A stretch of 64,000 nucleotides of DNA, taken from Heteronotia binoei. Lineage: Eukaryota. Every line of letters starts with the position of its first letter. Position 1 is the first letter of the stretch. The stretch lies in assembly GCF_032191835.1 (NCBI RefSeq), contig NC_083229.1, positions 43,958,001-44,022,000 of the forward strand, written 5' to 3'. Shown in pieces: positions 4,515 to 48,760 of this stretch. The translations under genes and the position numbers were made by a program. Under the pieces are notes generated by a model. The model was not told where the DNA came from. It saw nothing but the letters and a program-made list of their open reading frames with translations, and ran no database searches.

Positions 4515-4775
4515 AATTTTTTAAATTTTTTTTGTTTTGTGTGTGTGTGTGTGTGTCTGTCTATGTCTGTATGCGTGCGTGCGTGCCTAGAAGTCCTAGT
4601 TGAATTCTGGTGCCCCCTATTGGGAGTTCAGAGTGGTAGCTTGATATTGCCTGCCTTTGTGTCCTGGCAATGGTGTTCCTTGGAGGTCTCCCGTTCAAGT
4701 ACTTGCCAGGGTTGGCCCAGCTCAGCTTCTGAGATCTGATGAGATCAGGCTTGCCTGGGCTCTCCAGGGCAAGAC
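4515..4775 (-). mobile_element. 5S rRNA-derived SINE (SINE3-type)
   Basis: Minus strand CCTGATCTCATCAGATCTCAGAAGCTGAGCTGGGCCAACCCTGGCAAGTACTTGAACGGGAGACC resembles the 5S rRNA body. Unrelated 3' part with a (CA)-type tail. 16-bp TSD AGGAACCTTCATGTCT at 4499-4514 and 4776-4791. Confidence 0.8.
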
Positions 4776-14228: not shown

Positions 14229-15730
14229 CAATGTTCCCTCTAAGCTGAGTCTTTTTTTTTTAGACTCTGGTCGTTTTCGCACTTAGCGTTTGCTCCCCTT
14301 ATTCCGCGGCGCAATTATGTCCGGCTCATTTTCCTCGTTTTCGCACATGGACTCTTTGGCGGAGTCGCTTTCCATGAAGCCCCAGCTCAAATCGTTTTCC
14401 CACTGGCATCGACTTGAGTTCGATGCCCTGTCAATCATTTTTTTTTAAGCGCAAGTCTGGTTGCGTAACTACGTAACAACGTAACATCGAGCAGTCACAG
14501 CTGTTCATTCCCCTTCTTTTCGTGGACAAACCGCATCACGTGTGCTGCTTCTGCTTATGGATTGGCTGCAGCTGTAGTATCCTCCACAGCCCTTTATGTA
14601 TTAACAGAAGCATTCACAGTGGAGAATCCCAGCACTAGATTCCCCCCCCCCAACACAAATTCCGAAGTTGCAAAATATCGCAATAACGAAGAGAGAGAAA
14701 TCGAGGGGTTTGTGTGTGTGTGTGTGTGTGTGGCAGCTTCTTCCTTTCCCAGCCTCGCTCCCTCCCGGGTGGCGAAGCTGGGATTTCCTCCGCGCTCTTC
14801 CCCCTCCCCGGCTGGCGCTTGCAGCTGCAACGGGGACCTGACTGATTCCTGCTGCCAGAGCTCCCCCCCCCCGCCCCATTCTCTCCTTCCCCTTCTGTGG
14901 CGCGTGTGAAGAGTGAGCTCGCGTCTATTTTCTAACCGAGTGGAATGTAGCCAGGGAGGAGAATGCAGGACTCCAACTTCCCATTTTATACATGGCGATT
15001 TTGTGCAGGTCCAGAAATGCTGGTGGCACAGCTGAGGGAGGCATTGCCTTTTTAAAACACACACACATGAACGCTTTGGCCCGCGCCGGCACTAGATTCC
15101 CCCCCCCCAACAATGTATAATGTATAATGTATAATGCAATTCCGTAGTTGCAAGATAACGCAACAGCGGAAAAGCAACCTCACATACCCGCCGCTTTTTT
15201 CCCCCCTATTTGTTAATTTCAAAATATCGCTATTACGCAAGAAATATGAAGTTTTTTAAAAAATGGCCATGCGGGCACTTTTGGGAAGCGCCGCGAACGG
15301 CTGATGATTGGCCAAGGGGGTGGATGGGGTGGGAGGACGGAAAGGGAGAGGGTGACACCCACAAAGCAGTCGATCCAGCGTGGATGGATTTCCCACAGAA
15401 AACTCCGCGGAGTGGATCCGGAGGTTTTCAAAAACTCCGGAAGCATGTTGAAAAACATACTCCGGCGTGAAACCCTTGAAGCGCCGGAGCAAACCGCAGC
15501 ACCGGAGCAACAGGTGCGAAAACCAGGAAAAGATTCGGAGGTAAATGGGGTGCTACGCCGGAGTAAACGCTAGTGCGAAAACGCTCTCTGACTCACACGT
15601 TTTTGACTTGGCTCAGGAAGGATAGTCCCAGAGCATGCAGTAGCCAAATTGCTTGCTCATATCTTTAAAACCAGTAGCTCATGAAGTAGAATTTTTGTTC
15701 ACAAGATTCCACAGCTTAGAGGGAGCACTG
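14229..15730. mobile_element. hAT MITE (CA(A/G)TGTTCCCTCTAAG TIR) interrupted by the Harbinger-like element
   Basis: Ends match the uninterrupted copy at 58155-58346. Confidence 0.75.
14269..15586. mobile_element. CpG-rich non-autonomous DNA transposon, PIF/Harbinger-like
   Basis: TIRs GGTCGTTTTCGCACTTAGCGTTTGCTCC and (reverse complement) GAGCGTTTTCGCACTAGCGTTTACTCC; 3-bp TSD TCT (CTG also possible); no transposase ORF. Confidence 0.75.
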
Positions 15731-18284: not shown

Positions 18285-18899
18285 CAGGGTTTCCTAAACT
18301 TTTATTTCCCATGGCCCGGTTATTTCTACACTTCTCCTTTGTGACCCACTAAAATTTGGGGGTGGAGCCAGGAGACTTTGGGGGTGGAGCCGGGAGACAG
18401 GAATTATGTCATTTCCTGTGGTGTCAAGGGTCAAGTGATGTCACTTCTGGGGCACACTGAACCAAAACTCTATCTTTTCCTGTGATGTCACTTCCAGAAT
18501 GTCCACCAGTGGGGCCAGGGCACTAGTAGCCCTCCCACTGTTGCTTCCCCCCCTCCCAGCACCAAGAATACAGACNNNNNNNNNNNNNNNNNNNNNNNNN
18601 NNNNNNNNNNNNNNNNNNNNNNNNNNNNNNNNNNNNNNNNNNNNNNNNNNNNNNNNNNNNNNNNNNNNNNNNNNNNNNNNNNNNNNNNNNNNNNNNNNNN
18701 NNNNNNNNNNNNNAAAGCCTTCCTCGCCATCAGATGACCTCAGCCAGCAATAATTCTGCCAGGGGTCATTTGGTAAAAAAAAAAATATGCCCACTCCTCG
18801 CTTTGCTGGGGGCGAGGCTAGCTTTGGTTTTTTTGTGACCTGGTAGTGAGGCTTCTGTGGCCTGGTGCCAGGTCACGACCCTGCAGATGGGAAACACTG
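18285..18899. mobile_element. hAT non-autonomous element spanning the N gap
   Basis: CAGGGTTTCCT...GGGAAACACTG ends; exact 8-bp TSD CCTTAGAG. Confidence 0.85.
18576..18713. other. Assembly gap (138 N)
   Basis: Run of N. Confidence 1.
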
Positions 18900-30572: not shown

Positions 30573-32387
30573 ATTACAAACTGGCAGGCATTCACTTTTT
30601 GGAACTCCTTGCCTACCCACCTTTCAGGAAGACAATATGGTGTTAGCTGGCCACTTCAGGGTTGAGCAGGGATTTGAGAGATGTCTCTCTGTGCGTGTCT
30701 ATCTCTGCCTCTCTCTCACACACAGAGGCATACAGAGAGCTCTGTGGCTGCTTCCTGCTTTGTGCAGGAGAGATATATAATAAAGCATGTATAACTGGAA
30801 ACATCAATAAAGCATGTGTAAGCTGTTGGAAGAATTTTGCCTCTTTATTGGAATGGAATCCTGGCCACCATTTAGCCTCTTGTGGGCCTCCATGTTGCAA
30901 GTGCCACACCTACCTGCCCCTGCCCAAGAGCCTGTGGCACCTTCCTTTCCCCTCCCTTTCCCTTTCCTGCTGTCTGACGGTTTTGCAAGTGCTTTAGGGA
31001 AAGGGCCTGCTTCAAAGCTCAGCAATACTCACATTTTGTTGCCTGCACATCCAGTTGTGTGCCAAAAGTAGCTGAGTAACCATCCCATTCCCCCCATGCT
31101 GGACAGCATAGGGGTTCAACTGATGGGCCTCCAGCATCTAAAGGGTTGCCTCCCTACCCTCCTGGGTCTGTTTAGGCATGATAGGATGGACTTCTCCATC
31201 ATTAAATGCTTTAGGATTCCCACCAGGTTTTCTTACCTTACAGCACATAATCTGCATTATTCCTCCTTACACCCTTTTAACACCTGACTTATCTAAAACA
31301 CCCGCTCCATACCAGACAACATCAAGCAGCTGGAAACATCTTTTCCCAGCAATATGAGAAGAATTCCTCAGATCTCTGCTCAGCTCCGAAGTGACCAGTT
31401 AATACCACATTGTCTTCTTGAAAGGTGGGCAGTCAAGGAGTTCCTAAGAGTGACTGCCTGCCTGCTTCCTTAAATACTCATGTCTCCACCACTCCCTGTT
31501 GGCCAGAACACATGAAGCTCCCAGCCAGGCATCATTCTGGACCTTTAACACCTTCTGTTCCTAGAATGAAGGAGATGAGCAAAACAAATCATTGCATCAT
31601 GCATGGCAGGGACGGAAAAATTCTATGCACCTGAGAGTTCATACTGGGCAAACCATGAGATCTGCCATGGGATTATGGCTCTGCCACTACTCTTAAAGCC
31701 AAGATAAAGCATCAACTCCTTTCAAAAACACAGCTACATGGGAGCCACTTTTCTGTGGTGTGAATACCTGTGGCTGTGGTATTTGTGGGAATACTGCAAT
31801 GATTTGTGGAGAGCAGGGGTGTATGAGTATTTCCCACCTGATTCTTATATGGATGCCAATCAGGTGAAAAGACTCATTTGGTTGGCTCAACCTATATAAC
31901 TGAAGCCTTCACACATATAGCACAGTCGCACGTGAGAGCATAAAAGATGCATTCCCACTCAACGCAGTGTCTGCTTGTGTGTACTGGATTAAGGCTGCAA
32001 TCCAGAGGACTTTCTGTGGGCAGGAATGGAGCAGTTATATTCCTCTAAACATCTTTCTGAAAAGAGGATCAGTGTTATTCACAGACTCTCTGCATATGGA
32101 AATTTGGTTTGCACAGCAAAAGGTGCACATTGGTTATGTAAAGACTTGGGACATCTTTGTGTAGAACTACATTAAAGACTTCTTTTTCTTCTGCTTGATG
32201 TTATGATCCAAAGACAAGCTGGTTTTGTGGCTTAAGCCAGAACCTTTCCCCAGGATAATTATGACCAAATTACTTCAATGCTCTGTTAGTCTTTCCACTT
32301 CTCTTAACATAGTTCTCAGAATAGAAATACATATTTAAGAACTCTGATTCATTACGAGGAATCCATTCAAAGGCAGGAGATATATAA

Positions 32388-32808
32388 TGTAGGAAGCAAC
32401 CACACAAGACACATGTCCTGGGAGAATTGCTCAGCTTGCAAGCCAGCAGTCTTTATTTTTATAGGATTTTGGTCTCAGATTTTGTCATCACAATCACAAG
32501 ACTCGCACAAGGGACATGCAAAACATTTACCGAAATACCGAAATCTACCATGACAATTATCCAGAAATAACTTGTCTCAAGGTGACAGACGTAAGAACAT
32601 CTCTGTTTCCCCACATTTGAGAAAGTCCCTGCTGACCTTTGTCTGGGTAGCTAGACTCGTGATCTTCCCACCCATCTAGTGGTTGCTGGGTCAAAAAGTC
32701 ATGTAACTGCTCTCTATAACTGGGGCAGTGTTAAGTATTTACTGCATGATGGGTAAGTGCTATGTGTTACTGATTCAGGGGTCCCTGGTCATGTTGAATG
32801 GTACCACA
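32388..32808 (-). repeat. 3' LTR (421 bp)
   Basis: Identical copy of 38759-39179, preceded on the sense strand by an A-rich tract at the PPT position. Confidence 0.97.
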
Positions 32809-35616
32809 TGTCATTATTTTTTATTTATTTATATATTTTTGTGAGGCTGCATACAAAGGGCAGTGGAATAATGATTTGAGCTTGACATTCCCAGGAAGGA
32901 AGGAATACATAAAAATGGGATAAGAAAAATATGTTGATACGGATGGGGTGTTAGATAGGTAAGTGGGAAATAGGAGACAGGTGCTTGCATACTGGCACAT
33001 CGTAGTATTTCACTTTATTCATCCAGAGAATGCATATGTTGGGGGAAAAGGTCCATTTCAGAGGCATACTTACAGGCTAGGCAGGCCAGCTTTTCTACCA
33101 CAGAGCTACTGGAGTCTCTATCATGGGGCTGGATATTCAGGCTAGCTGGAGAGGGCTTCTGCAACCTGCCACCTCTTTGTGGGAGAGGATTCACTAGGCC
33201 GCGTGACAAGCTACTCTCATGGTACTTAGCACTCTTTAATGTTCACTTTTCCACCTTTTTGCATTGTTATTTTCTGAAGAGTGTATGTCAAATTGTATGA
33301 TGTGGTCTCTATTGATTTCAAACATTCAAGGTTAGGTATATAGTTAAAACAAAGATAGAATGGGAATGTCAAGTATCAAAAGGTAATTTCTATATGTATG
33401 AGGGAAAACTATGTGTCTTGGAATTGGGGAATTCTTTGTCAATGGTCACTATTAGCTATGTTATAAAAAATTGCAAGATGAATATACATAAACAATAATA
33501 AGAATATAAAACTCATTTTAGCTTCTAGGTACATGAGCAGTAATAAGGGACATATACAAGTACATGTTATAAACTGAATCAATTCATGCGCCTTTATGGC
33601 AAGTAACATATTGTAGCCTAGGTGATTAAAATACACACATTCAGACATAGGTGAATGTATGGCCAGAAATGGGCACTCCATACTGGCCATTATTACAATA
33701 TAAAAACCATTTCAATGTTCATTTTTGTTTTCCTCTCCCCTTAATCTGACAAAAGGTCTTCTTTCTTGAATTCATGGAAAGTTTGTGTGCTCTATGCATA
33801 ACAATCTTTTCACGGGGAAATGTGTTTTTATTGCAGCCAAAAAGAATTCAGTGGGGCTGCTGTTGTCATCTTTCTGGGGCCTCTAGCCTTTTGCTAGGCA
33901 GAGGAATTTTCCTGGAAAGAAGTGGTCTCCATAACTCAGTTTGGATGGAGCTTTGGGGGGAGGCCCTCCTTCCAACACCAATGAGGCATGATTAAGCAAA
34001 TTTTAGGACATCTGGGTAAATATGGAAGAGCCTGGAAAACATACTTGGAGAAACAAACAAACCAAATAACAATAATAGATTTTTTCTTTTCTTTTCTTTT
34101 AAAGGTTTTTTTTTTTTTTTTGCTATAAGTTGCCATAACTAAATTATCATATTTGTTTTGGACTGGAGACTTTCTTCTCCTCACATAAAGTTTTAGTTTG
34201 ATAATGTCTCTGCCCTTCTAATATTAAAGGGTAAATTTTATATACCATATATTATACAGAATACAAAGTTGTAATATAAACCTATGTATCACTTCTCATG
34301 ATTCAGGCCAGTGCACATCCATATAAAATAAAACATGCACCTAGAGATTCATGAGAGGCTTTTTACCTTGTTGCAACAGATGTGAATTTAAAAAAGAAAA
34401 CATGCAGTTGTATATAAGATTGGAGCTCCAGAAAATTAACAGTTTGAATTATCCCAGGATTAGGAAAATGGTCACAAAAAAGAAGAAAGAAAAAACTTTT
34501 GCTATAGCTTTGGAACATATGAAATTGTTAAAAATAAGAAAAAACTTTAAAAACAACTAAAATAAAACTGAGGCCTCAATAAAACAATGCTAGCTTTAAT
34601 CATACATGTATGTGAAGGATCAGATCTAAAATGATTAGAGAACTGGATCAGAGAATTTAAACCATTGGAAATCAGTGGGTTGATCAAGTCCCACTGAACC
34701 CCATTTTTCTCTGTGCCAGCCCTTTTAAAATTTGTTTTGTGGGTCTCACACAGGTGTGAGAATGGGTTTCAACAAATAACAAAATCCTAAAAGCAAATAG
34801 TAATTAATCCTTAAACAAACAATTCTTAACAGACATACCAGCAATTCTTAAAACTATCATAATGAATATGCAGTTAAACTTGACTTGTGGGTCTAGATTT
34901 CCTGCACAGGATATAATATCTGGTCATAAACACAAAACAATTCTTAAATCTATTTATAATAAACATGCAATGTATATATAAACTTAAGAGAAAACCTAGT
35001 AAAGAGCTCGCACAGCCAAGAAGATGTGTGTGGCAGTGCAAAGACAGAATTTAGAACTGATGAATAAAACAGGGTGCTAAAACATGCACCTTGATGAAGA
35101 ATGGTTGAAATAATGGAAAGGCTGAAACTTAAAACAAATAAATGGAAATGTGTTATCCAGTAGCAAGCCTGGCCAGGGCTGCAGACTGAATTAAAACAAA
35201 AGATCAAGCAAAAATGGACTTCTACCATGGTAAGAACATGAAATATTGAAAGGATTTTCTAAACAGAACACTCAGAAAAAGTCAGACTCTAACAAGATAC
35301 TCTAGAGGTATAAAACTAAATAGATAAGTATGTAGATGGAAATAACTATAAGAGAACAAATGAAAATACACATTTAAGGAATGCAGAACATTATTAAAGT
35401 CCAGATTTCTAATGAAGACCAAGAGTTTTCAAGAATTCTGCCTAATGAATCACCAATAAATCTAGAAAAGGTATTTTTATGAGAAACATGATACTGAGAA
35501 TAATTGGGTCACTGATAAAACAAGGTATTTAGTTTTTCAAGACTTAAAAGAGAAGATGCATAATGAGAGAGTATTTTTATCCAAGGAAGGGTACAGATGT
35601 TTTTCTATAACACATG

Positions 35617-35997
35617 CTATAACTTCAAATGAAAAAGGTAACCAAAATTGGTGAGGTAGAATTTTAAAACATTGATCTTTGCAGAAAATAAAGATTTAGT
35701 ATCAACAATAAAAAGAATTTTCAGATTTAAATGAATAAAAATTGTGAAGCAATTCAAAATAAGATGAAAAATTGTGATCAATGTAAAACTAATAGCCTTA
35801 ACAGGAAACAAAATACATAAATACAAACAATAGAAACTAGTCATGGATTTCATTGTAAACTGTAAACACAGCAGCCACCAAATTTTCTGGAGAAGGCTCT
35901 TGCCCAGCCTCTTCCAGCATTTGAGGCTGAGATTGAAATTAAGAATCAGACTTAAAAGACTCTTATGCCATGCCATCTTTAGCCAAGCAAATAGGAC
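35617..35997 (-). pseudogene. Putative env start: splice acceptor, ATG and decayed betaretroviral Env-leader-like segment
   Basis: TTTTCTCTTGCAG|G acceptor at 35998, AAGATGG at 35976. An alternative frame reads MLEEAGQEPSPENLVAAVFTV, resembling the betaretroviral Env leader (..L...G...TPE.(L/M)..A.L.V). Downstream sequence has many stops. Confidence 0.4.
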
Positions 35998-36779
35998 CTG
36001 CAAGAGAAAACACAGCAGCATGCCTGCGCCCCCAGGTAAGGGGGAACTGGATCATGCCAAGTTAATAGGACAAAATTCAATTTAAATCCACATTTTTACT
36101 CCTTTTAATTGCTTTTGAAAAGTGGTTTTTAACGTAAGATTAGCATTTTTTTTTTACAATAACTTGATCTGTGGAATTACATTAAATGTCATACTGGAAT
36201 TAAATGTTTCATTGTATACAAAAATCAACAAATTTAGAAGAACAGGTAAAAATGGGATTCAACAAAAGAAATACAGAAAGAGAGATAAAAGCCTTATTTA
36301 GCATATAGAAAACCAACAGGCACATAGCAAGATCTATTATTATTTCCCCTTGTGCTCTTGCAGTAGGGAGGATGTATATCTGTACTCTATGCAAAAAGCA
36401 CTAAGCTATTGCACAGTGAAATTTTGTTCACTTCCTGTCTCTGTTCAAAAGGCAGAGAGAAAAAAAGAAATGGCTATAAACACGTCTCTAATAAAAAATC
36501 TGGCTGGGGTTTTTAAAGTAATGTTATCTGTCTGTCTGTCCTCTATTGGCAGTAAAGTTTTTCTTGGGCTGTTTTTCTGTCTTCATTGCACAAGCCTGCT
36601 GTTTGTACCTGGCCCACCTTGCAGGGCTGATGTGCAAGTTCAGAGCAGAGTTGTTAGCAATGAGAGAGAGAGAAAAAAAATGGGTACGTGTGTCAATGGC
36701 TTTTTGTTCCTACTAAGCATGCAATGAAATTACTAAGCAGGCAGGTTAAAATAAAAAAAAGAAGTACTGTTTTACTGTT

Positions 36780-37147
36780 ACAGGAGGTGGTGGCACCTAC
36801 AAGCATAGCCATTCCCAAGAGGGGGTTAGATAAAAAACAGAGGTCCATCAGCAGCTGTTAGCCACAGTATGGATATACATATATATAGACATGTGTAAAA
36901 AAAGATCTTGGATTAATATTCTGCCCTCCATTCAAAAATCCTGGAGCAACTCACAATTTTCTTTATCTCCCTCCCTCACAATAGAGGTGGGTGGGGCTGA
37001 GAGAGCACCTAGCTCTTTCAAATAAGACTTACACAGGTTTAATCACTATACCAAACTGACACATATATTGGTTGCTGAATGACACAGAGTGCTAGACTGG
37101 ATGGGCTGTTGGTCTGATCCAACACAGCCTTTTTTATGTTCTTATGT
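36780..37147 (+). mobile_element. Old CR1 3'-end element interrupted by a decayed Squam3 SINE, inside the provirus
   Basis: GGGGGTTAGATAAA..CAGAGGTCCATCAGCAGCTGTTAGCCACAG ... GACACAGAGTGCTAGACTGGATGGGC...TTATGTTCTTATG tail, with an antisense Squam3 remnant at ~36910-37058. Confidence 0.75.
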
Positions 37148-37542
37148 TGATTTGCACACTACACCGGTTAATAGCATAATCAGGAAATAATTAGTAAAGT
37201 TCCAATGTGCTAAATCTGATCAAAAACAACAAAAACTGGTCGTTTTGGCATTTTAGTCAAAAATAAGTATGACTGAAAGAAAGAATAGAGAAGTGACATC
37301 TGTCTTCAAATGCATTGCCCTGAGCAATCACACCAGAAGGATAAATAGTGAGCAATGAGAAAAGTAAGAACAGAAATTTAAAACCTGCAAGATTAAAAAT
37401 ATAGCCAATCAAATTAAGGTCAATTTGGAAAAATACATGTACCAGGAAATTTGATGAATCAAATTACGTGTATATAAGGTATCAACTTTTAAGTTGAAAG
37501 CCTGTGTGAATAGAAATGAAAAGCCATTGCTCTGACAACAAT

Positions 37543-37680
37543 CTCAGAAAAATGGAAGGCTGAGTAAACTTGAGACAACTATCTGAATCCAGCTTCCACC
37601 AGGATCAAACTTAGGGTGTAAGCAGACCTCAAGACTGCAGTACTATAGCTTTAAAGCCATTGCTCTGCACCACGGGGCTT
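37543..37680 (-). mobile_element. Diverged Sauria SINE (Squam1) 5' part truncating gag
   Basis: Minus strand CCCCGTGGTGCAGAG...AAAGCTATAGTACTGCAGTC...GATCCTGG..GAAGCTGG...CTCAAG.TTACTCAGCCTTCCAT aligns with the Sauria SINE copy at 51702-52002. Confidence 0.8.
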
Positions 37681-38614
37681 TTTTTTCTGAATCCAAATTA
37701 GCATTTTCTTTGGCCAATTGCATCATCAATTTTCCTGTTGCATCAGGATTATCAATCTGTCTGCTGATTGATGCCTGAAGACAGTTGAGAAGGTTTAAAT
37801 AGAGCTGTTGTGGCTTGTAACAAACCATTGCAAAAATATGGGCTGGCTTCTGTTCTGTAGGTACCTTAGCAAAGTCCTGTAAAGCACATTCCACATTGTG
37901 GTCATCAGAGAGTCCTTCTAAAAGATTTTGCACATTGGTTCCCTCTGTGGCAATATCTCTGACAGCCTTTTGAGTTTCACTCAAGACAGAGTGGGACAAC
38001 ACAGTATAGTTAACAGCGTGTTGCCTATTTTCATTCTGTACAGATGTTACTGGGCATATCGATAAAGAGTCAGACAACTCTTCCCCTGTCAAATCTACAG
38101 GGCAAACAGACAACATTTCTACCAATTCTGGGACATTTTCCAATTTAGTCTGATCAAGTTCCTTCTCTAAAACTTCACAGACCATGCGTCCCTGGGCGTT
38201 AGATAGTGAGCCCATGGGTGGATCTGTTGGTGGAGGAGGGGAAAAAGGAGGAGGAAGAAAAGGAGAAGGAGGGGCAGGGGACATAAGTTGAACACCCATG
38301 TCTTTTAGGGAACAATCTTTAGAGAGGTGGCAGGGGTTAGAAACGGGCATAAATTTTTCTACTGCATTCCTGCATTTATGCCAGGTTTTAAGAATCTTAA
38401 CAGGAGATAGTGGCTCCATATGAAGAATATTGCCAATTTTCTCCCAGTCCTTTAGATTCAAGGAGCCACTCTGGGAGTACCATGGACATCGTTGTCTAAT
38501 TACTTTAAGAAGACTCTGTAACTGAGAGCAAGACACAGACCCGCTGGACTTTTTCACTAAGAATCTCAGTTCCTCTACATGTTTCTGTTCAGCCTGTGAT
38601 AAATTTGAACCCAT
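37643..38614 (-). CDS. gag: Truncated betaretrovirus-like Gag (MA, Pro-rich region, deleted CA; no NC), 323 aa
   Basis: MGSNLS myristoylation motif. CPWYSQSGSLNLKDWEKIG resembles HERV-K MA (CPWF..GTLDLKDW.RIG). Pro-rich spacer, CPV CA start, degenerate MHR, LAKENAN CA-CTD motif. The last ~12 codons come from a SINE. Confidence 0.9.
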   Translation of the reverse strand: MGSNLSQAEQKHVEELRFLVKKSSGSVSCSQLQSLLKVIRQRCPWYSQSGSLNLKDWEKIGNILHMEPLSPVKILKTWHKCRNAVEKFMPVSNPCHLSKDCSLKDMGVQLMSPAPPSPFLPPPFSPPPPTDPPMGSLSNAQGRMVCEVLEKELDQTKLENVPELVEMLSVCPVDLTGEELSDSLSICPVTSVQNENRQHAVNYTVLSHSVLSETQKAVRDIATEGTNVQNLLEGLSDDHNVECALQDFAKVPTEQKPAHIFAMVCYKPQQLYLNLLNCLQASISRQIDNPDATGKLMMQLAKENANLDSEKKAPWCRAMALKL

Positions 38615-38621
38615 TACTTAC
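38615..38621 (-). promoter_or_regulatory. Major splice donor of the provirus
   Basis: TTG|GTAAGTA directly abuts the gag ATG, the usual betaretroviral position. Confidence 0.75.
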
Positions 38622-38738
38622 CAAGTGAGGGGGGTCGTATAAATACGACGACAAGTGCACTTCTGGGGCCTTTCCTTCTAGGCGGTTGGTAAGTAGAACT
38701 GAGCGGCTACCGAAGCTTCTCTGCTATCGGAGTCGAGG

Positions 38739-38756
38739 GCCCCACGTTGGGCGCCA
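38739..38756 (-). other. Primer-binding site, tRNA-Lys1,2
   Basis: Minus strand reads TGGCGCCCAACGTGGGGC, the 18-nt Lys1,2 PBS known from HERV-K/JSRV/MPMV-type viruses, 2 nt after the LTR-terminal CA. Confidence 0.95.
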
Positions 38757-38758
38757 CA

Positions 38759-39179
38759 TGTAGGAAGCAACCACACAAGACACATGTCCTGGGAGAATTG
38801 CTCAGCTTGCAAGCCAGCAGTCTTTATTTTTATAGGATTTTGGTCTCAGATTTTGTCATCACAATCACAAGACTCGCACAAGGGACATGCAAAACATTTA
38901 CCGAAATACCGAAATCTACCATGACAATTATCCAGAAATAACTTGTCTCAAGGTGACAGACGTAAGAACATCTCTGTTTCCCCACATTTGAGAAAGTCCC
39001 TGCTGACCTTTGTCTGGGTAGCTAGACTCGTGATCTTCCCACCCATCTAGTGGTTGCTGGGTCAAAAAGTCATGTAACTGCTCTCTATAACTGGGGCAGT
39101 GTTAAGTATTTACTGCATGATGGGTAAGTGCTATGTGTTACTGATTCAGGGGTCCCTGGTCATGTTGAATGGTACCACA
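38759..39179 (-). repeat. 5' LTR (421 bp)
   Basis: Sense strand TGTGG...CCTACA. No mismatch to 32388-32808 on line-by-line reading. Followed by TG and then the PBS. Confidence 0.97.
38823..38834 (-). promoter_or_regulatory. Overlapping TATA box and AATAAA in the LTR
   Basis: Sense strand CCTATAAAAATAAAGAC about 65-75 nt from the LTR 3' end; same in the 3' LTR. Confidence 0.7.
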
Positions 39180-42100
39180 ATATAAGACACAACAGTCTTA
39201 GACAAGTTCTAGTTTATTACCGAAATTCATTGAGAGGAATGTGTATTTAACTTTAAGTAAGCATACTAGCATAAAAGTGTTTGATTAATCTAATCTTGAT
39301 TAATTTGTATGGAAATCAGCAGCATTAGACCCAGCTGCATTTTCTAGAATCGGGAGTTCTGACAACATTTAATTATCCACTGACAAATGCTTCTTATTTG
39401 TTTACCCTAATACTTCTCCAGGCTAAACATGATAATTGTTGTACATATGCACACTCCTAGCAGTATTGGCCATCTGATGACTCAGTCCAAGGGTGATATT
39501 AAATTGGTGGCTGGATATTCACTGGGTTAAAAGTTTGAGCAACTTCAGAGTGGGTAGGTATGCATCACTTCAGGGTTACATGCTTCTTGCTAAAATGATT
39601 TATGGTATCAGGAAAAACTTTACCCTCCAGGACTTGTGGAGAACTTACATAGTGCAACCAGAGAGAGGTAAACCTCTGTTAGTGTTGAACCTCATTAAAA
39701 ACATAAACCTGACTACCTGCACTGAATAATTCCCCCTAACGGTTGAAGATATGATGCATATATATTTAAACAAGTGTCTATTTTTATTGCTATCCTGTGT
39801 CCCTGTGGGATCTTTCATAATGAAAAACTGAACTGCAGGCAAGCCTTCAAGTTATTATGGTCAAAATGAGGATTTTTATTAACCATCGTGGCTTTATTTC
39901 TGGGGCTGATAATTACAAAAACATTTGAATTCCACTTTCACGGTGACTTATGCTTTTCCTTGGATGTAGGCAAAGTCTGGCAGTTTCAACCTCTAAGGAC
40001 TGATGGAAAATGATCACAGAAGAGATTTGCATCTACCTTGGAATACATGTCAGTTGAAGCAGAATACTTGCATTATGTACCTGTAATTCTGTTTCTTTTT
40101 CTGTTCAAACAAATGTGTATATCCTTTATATATAATTCCCATTTCGTCTTGGCAAATTTAAACTCTCTCATTGGTTGGAACTGGGTTGGATTGTAGTGCA
40201 TCAGCCTTTGGCCCGCAGAACCATCAATCAGCTGCTCTTGCATTGCAGTGGCTGACTCTGCTCTCTCCCACCCACTGCTGGCCCCTGGACAGACAAAGAA
40301 ACTGGGGGGAACTGCTAGGCAGTGGCTGCTGCTAGGCAACTAGCCTTGCTTCTCTCAGTAAAAAGCAATCAAGCTTGGTTCTCTCAGTAGAAGCCAGTGG
40401 GGGAGGCCCTTTCAAGTCCTATTTTGGCCTTTGAGGGAAAACTCATTGGTTGACTCCGCTTCTCTCTCTCACCCGAGTAGCTGTTGCTAGCCAGCTAAGC
40501 TGATTCTGTCAGTAAAAGGCAACCAACTTTGGTTCTGGCAATTTATGGCTCTCCCTACTCTCCCATTGGCTAAGTTGCCTGTCACACTGCTTTCCCTTTA
40601 CTGGTTGAGGGATGAAGGAGGAGGGAAAGAGCCATAGATAAAGCCTTCCCATGATTGGCTGAGGGAGGAGGAGGGAAGGCTTTCTCTCAGCTGGCTGAGG
40701 ACTCCCTTGATTGGTTGAGGGTTCCTCCCTGTCCTCTGAAAAGGAAACACCCAGTGATGGGGGGGAAATGGTGTCCTGTCACATAGGCCAGATACAGAGG
40801 AGACAGTTAGGGAGGGAAAACAAGAGACAGAGAGATTGAAGCCAGTGTTATCAGAGAGACAGTGTTGTTCTGAAAGATATCACTAAAGGACTTTGAGGGA
40901 GAACCCATTGGAACCAGTCCTGACGAGGGTTGCCGGTTCCAGGTTGGTGGGAAATTCCTGCAGATTTTGTGGTGGAGTTTGAGGAGAGCTTAGGCTTCAG
41001 AGTGGGGTCTGCCAGACCCAGATTCTTGCTGGGGAAACTGACTGGGTGATTTCAGACCAGTCACACACTTCCAGCCTCACCTACCTCACAGAGTTGTGAT
41101 GCAGATCAAAGAGAGGAGAAAAGATTGATGTAAGCTTCTTTGCCCCCCACCACCACTGTGGAGAAAGAAGTCCTATGTAGAGGCTGCAGGGAGGGGGGAG
41201 GTGACAGAAAGCTGAATTCAGAGAGGCAGATAAAGGGAAGGTGATAGGTTGCCAACTTCAGCTTAGGAAATTCCTGGAGATTTAAGGAGTGTAGCCTGGA
41301 GAGGGTGGAGTTTGAGGATGGATGGGACCTCAGACGGGTACAATGTCATACATGCCACCCTCTAAACCAGCCATTTCCTCCTGGAGCACCACCATTGCCA
41401 ATCTCCTGGTGAGGGCTCGAGTTCACTCAGGATTACAACTGCTCTCCAGATGGCAAAGATCAGCTCCTCTTGAGATGGGGTGGGGAGAGTGAATGCCTTC
41501 ACTTGGGTAGGTGGGAAGATAGCAAGGATGGAGGGCACTCATCCAGAGCCTCTTTCTAGAGCCCGTTGTATTTTTCTTCACAGCGGGCCCTATCCCTAGT
41601 AACGATATAAATAAGGACACCATGTGAGTTCTACTATGATTCCCCCTCTAAATTTCTTCGACTGTTATACTTAGAAGATGTATCCTGACAATAGAGTCAA
41701 ATTTCACAATAAGATGTGAACAAGCTTCTGACCATACACAAGTCAAGCTGGAAGACTGAATTTGTTATAAAATTCATTGACAGACTGAATTCATTCATTG
41801 TATATATCTTATGTCTCCTTTCAGACTTGATAATAACTTTTTCTGACATTATATAAAGAGAATGTAGGCCATGATAGAAATCATGATAGAAAGTTAAACA
41901 CTGTTAAGTTCACTTGCTCTCAATGGCAGAATTAAGCAGTTTGGTGTTTACAACGTCAGGTTAGGATCTGGGAGGGAGGCCCGGGTTCACATACTCAGAG
42001 TTCCTTGAAGCTCACTGAACAACATTGGACTAGTCAATCACAGCCTAACTTCCTTACTTGAGGAGAGGAAACCAACATACAGCACTCTGAGCTCTTGGAG

Positions 42101-46986: not shown

Positions 46987-48760
46987 TAGGGATGCCAGGT
47001 CCCCTTGCTGGTCTGGTGGGGGGATTTGGGGACCATTCTGGGGGGCTGGGAGGGGACATTGTGTGATGTTCCTGATGCAATGGTGTCGCTCAGAAGTGAT
47101 GTCAATTGCCTCAGGATGTCGCACAGGGGACTTAGGTTAAATTGGGCTTAAACTATTTATTTATTTATTTATTTATTTTATATCCCACCCTCCCTGCCAA
47201 AGCAGGGTCAGGGCGGCTCACAGTATAAAATCACAGCAACAATTAAAACAATACATATTATAAAATTACAGATTCTACAAGTTAAAACAATCAGAATTGG
47301 TTTGATGCTAATCTCATTAGATGTTGTATATTTTCAGTGGCGATGGCATTTCTCCAGTTTCCTGCGATGTAGGCTCCACATCAGTTAAAAGCCAACTGGA
47401 AGAGAGCGGTCTTGCAGGCCTTGCGGAACTGACAAGGTTCCGCAAGGCCCTCACTTCCTCTGGCAGTTGGTTCTACCAGTGGGGGGCTGCAATCGAGAAG
47501 GGCCTCTGTCTGGTGGTTTTTAATTTGGCCTCCTTCGGCCAGGGGATTACCGATAAATTTTGAGATCCAGATCGAAGTACCCTCTGGGGAATGTGTGGAG
47601 AGAGACAGTCCCTAAGGTAGGCAAGTCCTAGGCCATATAGGGCTTCAAAGGTAATAACCAGCAACTAGTAACGAATCCGGAATACTATTGGCAGCCAGTG
47701 CAGTTCCCGTAGCCCCAACTGTATGTGCTCCCACCCGGGAAGCCCCAATAGCAACCTGGCTGCCGTGTTCTGCACTAGCTGTAGTTTCCAGGTTCGGCAC
47801 AGGGGCAGCCCCAAGTAGAGGGCATTACAGAAGTCCAACCTCAAGGTGATTGTTGCATGGATCTCTGTTGCCAGGTCGTCACGCTCCAGGAAGGGGACCA
47901 ACTGCTTCACCCACCTAAGATGGAAAAAAGCAGATTTGGCAGTGGCTGCTATCTGGGCCTCCATTGTCAGGGCAGGCTCCAGCAGCATCCCAAGCTCTTG
48001 ACCTTGTGCGCCATTGTCAGTGGCGCACCGTCAAATGCTGGTAAGGGGATTTCCCTACCCAGACCACCACGATTCAGGCAAAGGACCTCTGTCTTTGCTA
48101 GATTCAACTTCAATCGACTCAGCCTGCCACAGCTTGCAACGCCAGATCCAGATTTTCTGGGACAGTCAGGCCAGCCATTCATCAGTAGACAGAGATGAGT
48201 GTCATCAGCATACTGGTGGCAACCCAACCAATACCTCCGGCCAATCTGGGCAAGGGGGCGCATATAGATGTTAAACAACATTGGGGAGAGCACTGTCCCC
48301 TGAGGCACCCCACAATTAAGCGTGTGCCTCCGGGACAGTTCTCCCCCAATCACCACCCTTTGTCCCCGACCATCAAGGAAAGAGGAAAGTCATTGCAAGG
48401 CCAACCCCTGAATCCCTGCGTCGGCGAGGTGGTGGATCAGTAGCTGATGGTCGACCGTATCGAATGCAGCCGATTGGTCTAAACATCAGTACCACCGAGC
48501 CGCCTCGATCCAGATGCCGCTGGAGGTCATCCACCAGGTCAACCAGCAGTGTCTCTGTCCCATGACCTGGGTGAAAACCGGACTGGTGGGGGTCTAGTAG
48601 AGTTTGTTCCAAAACCAGAGCATCTCCCATGCAATATCCCCATTGTAGTGATGTCACTTCTGGGTGATGTCATCACGTTGGGGATGTCATGCAGCAATGT
48701 CCCTGTTTAGGGGAGGGTTTCCCCCCACTGGCCAGCTAGAACCTGGGGGCTGGCAACCCT
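46987..48760. mobile_element. hAT-type non-autonomous element (TAGGG(A/T)TGCCA TIR) split by the L2 insertion
   Basis: TAGGGATGCCA at 46987 and TGGCAACCCT at ~48751-48760; internal TGATGTCA(CTTC) repeats on both sides of the L2. Confidence 0.55.
47153..48615 (-). mobile_element. 5'-truncated L2 LINE (RT and C-terminus), frameshifted
   Basis: LDPHQSGFHPGHGTET, GVPQGTVLSPMLFNIYM, HQYADDT, RLDFCNALYLGLP, LHWLPI, LRS..., (ATTT)n tail at ~47153-47180. Confidence 0.93.

What the first reader, a model, noticed from the sequence alone, without database searches (positions are those of the whole stretch)
32388..39179. Old, insertion-riddled defective betaretrovirus genome with identical LTRs: candidate recently active non-autonomous ERV family in a lizard
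Seen: the two 421-bp LTRs are identical and the 6-bp TSD is exact. The interior lacks pro/pol and is decayed, and it carries three diverged host retroposons (Sauria SINE head at 37543-37680, CR1 end plus Squam3 at 36780-37147). Known: LTRs are identical at integration, and non-autonomous LTR elements such as mouse ETn are mobilised by autonomous partners (MusD). Inference: decayed nested insertions cannot postdate a 0%-divergent LTR pair, so an ancient defective provirus was copied recently, insertions included, by a helper betaretrovirus-like element. That would imply a possibly still active helper/parasite pair, and a locus that may be polymorphic.
Basis: partly seen in the sequence, partly recalled or inferred. 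Interest (0 to 1): 0.8.

Follow-up and report, generated by a model that had tools for sequence, protein, structure and literature searches.

The report
Young provirus with an old core
A broken retrovirus in a lizard genome has fresh ends and a fresh front part around a long-decayed core, so it was probably re-copied with borrowed enzymes, as already known from cattle, koalas and mice.

Summary
The element is real: two identical 421-bp LTRs (32388-32808, 38759-39179), an exact 6-bp target duplication, minus strand. The interior is a decayed beta-like provirus, not captured host DNA. An env leader is detectable (0 of 150 shuffles reach it), with weaker RNase H and integrase traces in the right order, plus old host retroposons.

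It has a perfect Lys1,2 primer site, a CpG-rich leader, a splice donor and an open 323-codon gag frame. In that frame matrix is as conserved as in 20 relatives, while capsid is degenerate and nucleocapsid is lost at a SINE head that stands where pro-RT should be.

Best reading (0.75): a defective genome recently reverse-transcribed with a helper's proteins, probably a young-front/old-body recombinant like bovine ERVK D-type or recKoRV. Against: no canonical polypurine tract, and tree tests do not establish the recombination. Copy number, helper and polymorphism could not be tested. Identical LTRs allow up to 0.7% divergence, so they do not show present activity. A known kind of element; I found no squamate report.

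The parts
39180..39185 (.). target-site duplication, 5' LTR side (ATATAA on +)
38759..39179 (-). 5' LTR, 421 bp, TG...CA; candidate TATA and AATAAA at LTR positions 346 and 352
   Evidence: function of the motifs inferred
38739..38756 (-). primer-binding site, 18 of 18 match to PBS Lys1,2, both CpGs intact
   Evidence: sequence as printed in PMC8775094
38615..38758 (-). leader: 10 CpG in 144 nt; consensus-like splice donor with GT at 38621-38620
37643..38614 (-). open gag-derived frame, 323 aa: conserved matrix (1-92, Gly at position 2), proline-rich linker, 16-codon duplicated motif (codons 163-189), capsid with an in-frame loss of about 69 codons at 240/241, no nucleocapsid; last 11 codons come from the SINE
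38080..38128 (-). duplicated cleavage-site-like motif; candidate crossover between a younger 5' and an older 3' parent near 38095 (inferred, not established)
37543..37679 (-). SINE 5' head (Sauria-type by recall), 3' part absent, in place of NC-pro-RT; holds a 15-nt exact copy (37653-37667) of 37520-37534
37379..37548 (-). RNase H-like remnant, broken by a frameshift and a stop (weak: 9 of 150 shuffles reach the score)
36723..37148 (+). LINE 3' end (CR1-type by recall), antisense to the provirus
36885..37060 (-). SINE (Squam3-type by recall) nested in the LINE piece; 8-bp duplication at 36877-36884 and 37061-37068; head seen by eye, middle deleted
36149..36256 (-). integrase-core-like remnant with two stops (3 of 150 shuffles)
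35998..36046 (-). integrase C-terminal-like motif (recalled; Pfam and PDB blank) ending in a splice-acceptor-like pyrimidine tract and CAG at 36000-35998
35809..35979 (-). env leader / signal-peptide remnant, frameshifted; matches lizard ERV env leaders
   Evidence: 0 of 150 shuffles
32831..35808 (-). unassigned; position of env SU/TM and 3' UTR; strongly T-rich on the viral strand; no homology found
32809..32830 (-). polypurine-tract position: A-rich (16 of 20 purines), no G run
32388..32808 (-). 3' LTR, identical to the 5' LTR
32382..32387 (.). target-site duplication, 3' LTR side

Best explanation
A non-autonomous, beta-like (class II) endogenous retrovirus that integrated here recently by ordinary reverse transcription, using Gag, RT and integrase supplied in trans. 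Its body (capsid region, pol and env remnants) comes from a provirus that sat in host chromosomes long enough to decay and collect a LINE end and SINEs. Its front (LTR, PBS, leader, splice donor, matrix) is undecayed. Most likely a template switch with a younger co-packaged virus near gag codon 173 joined the two (about 0.45 of total probability). Otherwise a long-lived parasitic lineage kept only its 5' cis signals, matrix and an open frame under selection (about 0.30). Shown: the anatomy, the decay gradient and the lack of coding capacity for RT/IN. Inferred: recent reverse transcription, the helper, the crossover, and any cis role of the gag frame.
For: LTRs 421 of 421 identical with an exact 6-bp duplication; 95% upper bound on divergence 0.71%. 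The nested retroposons differ from flank copies at 36 of 126, 10 of 67 and 29 of 117 scored sites. PBS 18 of 18; chance of staying perfect at 15-25% divergence is 0.054-0.006. The leader has 10 CpG (11 expected) against 1 in 1901 nt at 34100-36000; 4 of 397 flank bins reach 10. The gag frame has no stop in 312 codons where 6-10 are expected at 15-25% divergence (P 0.002 to 3e-5), and both large indels keep frame. Matrix scores above 20 of 20 relatives and capsid C-terminal domain below 20 of 20; end branch 0.31 (median 0.43) for matrix against 1.13 (median 0.53) for capsid. The best-matching relative switches from P0001 (matrix and codons 145-173) to P0016/P0002/P0004 (174-312) at a duplicated motif. 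Precedent: PMC10924933 describes the swap of a central segment for an old retroelement piece in cattle, koala and mouse.
Against: No canonical polypurine tract: no purine run of 9 or more in the last 700 nt, though reverse transcription needs a plus-strand primer there. LTR (5 CpG, 19.9 expected) and matrix (2, 10.9 expected) are about as CpG-poor as host DNA, so only the leader looks fresh by that measure. AU tests rejected none of 5 groupings (p 0.075-0.32), so the crossover is not established. The matrix ranking is inflated because relatives were picked by similarity to this frame. RNase H and integrase hits are individually weak (9 and 3 of 150 shuffles), and the integrase zinc finger was not detected (122 of 150). 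Retroposon divergence was measured against 3-5 flank copies, which may be other subfamilies. No second copy and no helper were seen.
Confidence: 0.75

Rival explanations
1. An old provirus fixed at this site, whose LTRs were recently homogenised by gene conversion and whose matrix-bearing frame and leader were kept by host selection (a co-opted gag, for example an antiviral one).
For: Explains the lost polypurine tract, the CpG-poor LTR, the open frame and the conserved matrix. LTR-LTR conversion is documented (bioRxiv 10.1101/024190, passages).
Against: Needs a complete and very recent 421-bp conversion. It gives no reason for a perfect PBS (P 0.054-0.006) or a perfect target duplication (P 0.38-0.18). 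The conversion passages read describe reduced divergence and younger dates, not full identity.
Confidence: 0.1
2. Assembly artefact: near-identical LTRs were collapsed to one sequence, or a solo LTR here was expanded with an interior from another locus.
For: The window holds a 138-N gap, so it may be scaffolded from short reads; a solo LTR would also give a perfect target duplication.
Against: Collapse can hide only a few percent of divergence, far below the 15-29% of the interior. A borrowed interior must still adjoin near-identical LTRs at both ends somewhere, so the age contrast survives. No gap lies within 13 kb of the element.
Confidence: 0.1
3. The 4.9-kb interior is host genomic DNA captured by a young retrovirus (transduction), not a decayed provirus.
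For: Host-like CpG depletion and ordinary repeat content; Pfam blank on 6 full frames and on 63 windows; 3 kb remain unassigned.
Against: Env leader, integrase and RNase H remnants all lie on the gag strand in proviral order, with a splice-acceptor-like site at the expected place.
Confidence: 0.04

Closest known systems
Bovine ERVK[2-1-LTR] D-type elements (PMC10924933; passages and one section read)
   Same: Beta-like, Lys PBS, about 6.8 kb, identical LTRs, partial gag and env, no intact genes, central segment described as an old retroelement piece, mobilised in trans.
   Different: There the family, helper and new insertions are shown; here there is one locus. This element carries nested SINE/LINE pieces, keeps one open truncated gag frame and lacks a canonical polypurine tract.
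recKoRV (KoRV x PhER; PMC6112702; first fifth and passages read)
   Same: Young LTR, leader and gag start joined to an old degraded retroelement; target duplications; microhomology at breakpoints.
   Different: Gammaretroviral; recKoRV1 also keeps the young virus's env end next to the 3' LTR, whereas here no fresh 3' segment could be shown.
Mouse IAP 1-delta-1 and ETn/MusD (PMC6466679, passages)
   Same: Class II non-autonomous elements; in IAP 1-delta-1 a deletion-born open gag frame acts in cis, which would explain the open frame here.
   Different: IAP 1-delta-1 is a gag-pol fusion; here the frame ends 11 codons into a SINE head. ETn lacks coding frames (recalled).
Lizard beta-like ERV proteins P0016 (Phrynocephalus forsythii) and P0114 (Hemicordylus capensis), named; unnamed P0001-P0004
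   Same: Gag_p10 matrix, p24-type capsid, similar env leader.
   Different: Only 36-40% identical, so none is the helper; their SU/TM did not match the interior above background.

Membership tests
Class II (beta-like) endogenous retrovirus | Paired TG...CA LTRs with 6-bp target duplication | tested here: met
Class II (beta-like) endogenous retrovirus | Lys-tRNA primer-binding site | tested here: met
Class II (beta-like) endogenous retrovirus | Gag_p10-type matrix and p24-type capsid | tested here: met
   Pfam E 7e-13; PDB matrix hits; capsid by alignment to relatives, Pfam only E 0.11
Class II (beta-like) endogenous retrovirus | Gene order gag-pro-pol-env on one strand | tested here: met
   gag, RNase H-like, integrase-like and env-leader remnants collinear; pro absent; only the env leader is strong alone
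Class II (beta-like) endogenous retrovirus | Polypurine tract before the 3' LTR | tested here: inconclusive
   A-rich, 16 of 20 purines, no G run, no purine run of 9; the family's native tract is unknown
Genus Betaretrovirus | RT phylogeny and beta-type TM | not testable with these tools
   RT absent, TM undetectable; hence 'beta-like' only
Trans-mobilised defective ERV (D-type / recKoRV / ETn kind) | No coding capacity for RT and integrase | tested here: met
Trans-mobilised defective ERV (D-type / recKoRV / ETn kind) | Young ends with intact 5' cis signals around an older core | tested here: met
Trans-mobilised defective ERV (D-type / recKoRV / ETn kind) | Recombinant origin with a mapped crossover | tested here: inconclusive
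   pairwise switch and duplicated motif; AU tests not significant
Trans-mobilised defective ERV (D-type / recKoRV / ETn kind) | Several loci sharing the junctions; an autonomous partner with the same LTR | not testable with these tools
   no vertebrate genome collection; no second LTR in the window; no close protein relative

The most novel reading that the evidence does not exclude
A long-dead lizard provirus, with its SINE and LINE scars and a decayed polypurine tract, was brought back into circulation by one template switch that gave it a working 5' end. It now spreads as a parasite family whose myristoylated matrix-plus-broken-capsid protein, capped by a SINE-derived tail, is selected in cis to hijack or poison the helper's particles. 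That would be a polymorphic helper/parasite pair in a squamate that primes plus strands without a G-run tract.
Probability: 0.15. Interest if true: 0.7.

Novelty: new member of a known kind. Interest (0 to 1): 0.42.

Why it matters
If several copies and a helper exist, the 'young ends, old core' parasite pattern known from cattle, koala and mouse extends to squamates, where my searches found no report. It would also show old retroposon copies being moved as cargo, which confounds repeat dating, and it gives a natural test of whether an open truncated gag frame is needed in cis and whether a G-less tract can prime. As a single locus it is a good example of a known process.

Tried and rejected
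- Antisense gypsy/L1 pol at 34100-35750 (A-rich + strand, one CxxC): no support from Pfam, PDB in 3 frames (83-85) or tblastx to the flanks.
- Captured host DNA as the whole interior: rejected by the collinear remnants.
- Word-seeded protein search of the gag frame found nothing; the HMMER library gave 113 distant hits.
- Env SU/TM, NC, dUTPase/protease, RT thumb and integrase zinc finger: at background.
- The integrase C-terminal motif was not confirmed by Pfam or PDB and rests on recall.
- Rfam: nothing meaningful in the element (9, 62).
- RNA folding: leader not more stable than shuffles (z -0.6); 7 of 61 windows were flagged below z -2, the strongest at 34630-34779 (z -5.8; -3.1 on a wider window); no export element identified.
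- Strand-biased mutation (APOBEC-like): not seen in the nested repeats, C>T 21 against G>A 17 (50).
- Single-sequence structure prediction was uninformative (pLDDT 41); atlas hits on gag were all under 0.9, mostly Gag clusters.
- No host exon found among 95 of 102 long flank frames.
- Source names for most relatives stayed unchecked.
Full report
OBSERVATION. The two LTRs (32388-32808 and 38759-39179) are 421 of 421 identical, begin TG and end CA on the minus strand, and are flanked by ATATAA on both sides. The window's only gap is 138 N at 18576-18713. No other copy of the LTR lies in the window. The three repeat pieces are there and match flank copies at 70-85%. Their family names, and my impression that the repeat set is gecko-like, are recalled and unverified (searches gave no sequences). 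The named relatives are lizard proteins.

THE FRONT END IS NOT DECAYED. Two bases after the 5' LTR comes an 18 of 18 match to the Lys1,2 primer site printed in PMC8775094 (passages), with both CpGs intact. The 144-nt leader holds 10 CpG against 11 expected, while 34100-36000 holds 1 in 1901 nt. Only 4 of 397 flank bins reach 10; CpG-rich flank bins fall in 14257-15696 and 47665-48528, which look like young repeats. A consensus-like splice donor precedes the gag start. From 38614 an open frame runs 323 codons, with a Gag_p10 matrix (E 7e-13; PDB matrix hits).

GAG DECAYS IN A STEP. The HMMER library returned 113 hits, the four best 36-39% identical; I picked 20 full-length ones by hand for comparison. 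Matrix keeps 14 of 16 conserved columns and scores above 20 of 20 relatives. The capsid C-terminal domain keeps 15 of 23 and scores below 20 of 20; the capsid start is above only 1 of 20. End branches are 0.31 for matrix (median 0.43, 22 rows) and 1.13 for capsid (median 0.53, 21 rows); P0025 and P0067 were left out. The matrix rank is inflated by how the relatives were found, but the branch contrast runs the same way. About 69 capsid codons are missing in frame (66-101 in relatives), and everything after the capsid core, including nucleocapsid, is gone. A motif that relatives carry once occurs twice, 16 codons apart. Among the fetched proteins the best match is P0001 for matrix and codons 145-173, and P0016, P0002 or P0004 for 174-312, where P0001 falls to ninth or lower. 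This suggests an out-of-register crossover near 38095, but none of 5 AU tests rejected a grouping (p 0.075-0.32), so it remains a lead.

THE FRAME LOOKS SELECTED. At the 15-25% divergence of the nested repeats, 6-10 stops are expected in 312 codons; none is present (P 0.002 to 3e-5; 0.125 at 5%). The capsid stretch alone is less decisive.

THE BODY IS AN OLD PROVIRUS. Pfam was blank on the six full frames and on 63 of 120 planned windows, so I first suspected captured host DNA. Frameshift-aware alignment to fetched lizard-type proteins says otherwise. The env leader of P0016 scores 77 at 35935-35809 (0 of 150 composition-matched shuffles; P0088's leader 1 of 150), an integrase core 48 at 36256-36149 (3 of 150) and RNase H 51 at 37548-37379 (9 of 150). 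All lie on the gag strand in proviral order, and all are broken by stops or frameshifts. The integrase zinc finger (122 of 150), NC, dUTPase/protease, RT thumb and env SU/TM were at background. An integrase C-terminal-like motif (recalled) ends in a splice-acceptor-like site at 36000-35998. The stretch 32831-35808 is unassigned; its T skew at 34380-35879 (0.24) exceeds 38 of 38 flank bins.

THE INSERTIONS. The LINE end and its nested SINE (8-bp duplication) look like ordinary chromosomal insertions. They differ from flank copies at 10 of 67, 29 of 117 and 36 of 126 sites, within the 4-46% range of the flank copies themselves. The SINE head at 37543-37679 is different: its 5' end abuts gag, its 3' part is missing, it stands where NC-pro-RT should be, and it contains an exact 15-nt copy of the adjacent RNase H-like sequence. 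Insertion followed by deletion, or template switching through a SINE RNA, both fit.

MECHANISM. Identical LTRs cap divergence at 0.71% (95%). At an assumed 1-2 x 10^-9 per site per year (my assumption) that is under about 2-3.5 million years: recent, but not evidence of present activity. The old insertions must predate this integration. The perfect PBS and fresh leader fit passage through reverse transcription (that the primer site is re-templated from tRNA is recalled knowledge), and the element encodes no RT or integrase, so proteins came in trans. I give this 0.75, split between a young-front/old-body recombinant (0.45) and a long-lived parasite under selection on its 5' region and frame (0.30). 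The main objection is the polypurine tract: A-rich, without a G run or any purine run of 9. Search-listing abstracts describe a conserved G tract in HIV; the native tract of this lizard family is unknown. LTR and matrix are also CpG-poor. Rivals are gene conversion with a co-opted gag (0.10), assembly collapse or misjoin (0.10), which could hide only a few percent of divergence, and host-DNA capture (0.04).

COMPARISON AND NOVELTY. PMC10924933 (passages and section 11) describes 6.8-kb bovine D-type ERVK elements with identical LTRs and partial gag and env. It notes that cattle, koala and mouse pairs share a central swap with an old retroelement piece. PMC6112702 (first fifth and passages) documents recKoRV. 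PMC6466679 (passages) reports the cis role of the IAP 1-delta-1 frame. bioRxiv 10.1101/024190 (passages) documents LTR conversion. Three searches for a squamate case returned 1, 1 and 18 papers, none on this by title or abstract start; I read passages of one (PMC3230843). The library lacks most subscription papers, repeat databases were not available, and I looked in the supplements of only one paper, so an existing annotation cannot be excluded.

VERDICT. A real, well-formed element of a known kind. Copy number, helper and polymorphism decide its interest and could not be tested here. Interest 0.42.

Noticed in passing
window 14260-15590: CpG-rich, apparently young DNA-transposon-like element with imperfect inverted ends of about 27 nt; no long coding frame matched Pfam.
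   Followed up: partly
window 35617-36051 (minus): Longest stop-free frame of the pol/env part (144 codons; 119 aa from a Met just after the acceptor-like site). It starts like lizard env leaders and holds the hydrophobic core, while the middle motif lies in another frame. Length alone is not clearly beyond chance.
   Followed up: partly
window 34380-35879: Viral strand strongly T-rich (646 T, 393 A), beyond all 38 flank bins; cause unknown.
   Followed up: partly
window 34630-34779 (minus): Most stable local hairpin in the element (z -5.8, -3.1); no Rfam match; possible export element or chance.
   Followed up: partly
window 37520-37534 and 37653-37667: Exact 15-nt repeat: a patch in the SINE head identical to the adjacent RNase H-like sequence, possibly a template-switch scar younger than the surrounding decay.
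   Followed up: partly
window 47970-48389 (minus): LINE reverse-transcriptase fragment (RVT_1, E 1.7e-11) in a CpG-rich stretch.
   Followed up: no
window 4662-4768 (minus): 5S rRNA-like match just above the Rfam cut-off, probably a pseudogene or SINE head.
   Followed up: no
proteins P0034 and P0093: Predicted proteins joining beta-like capsid domains to host REC114-like and RhoGAP domains; probably gene-prediction chimeras.
   Followed up: no
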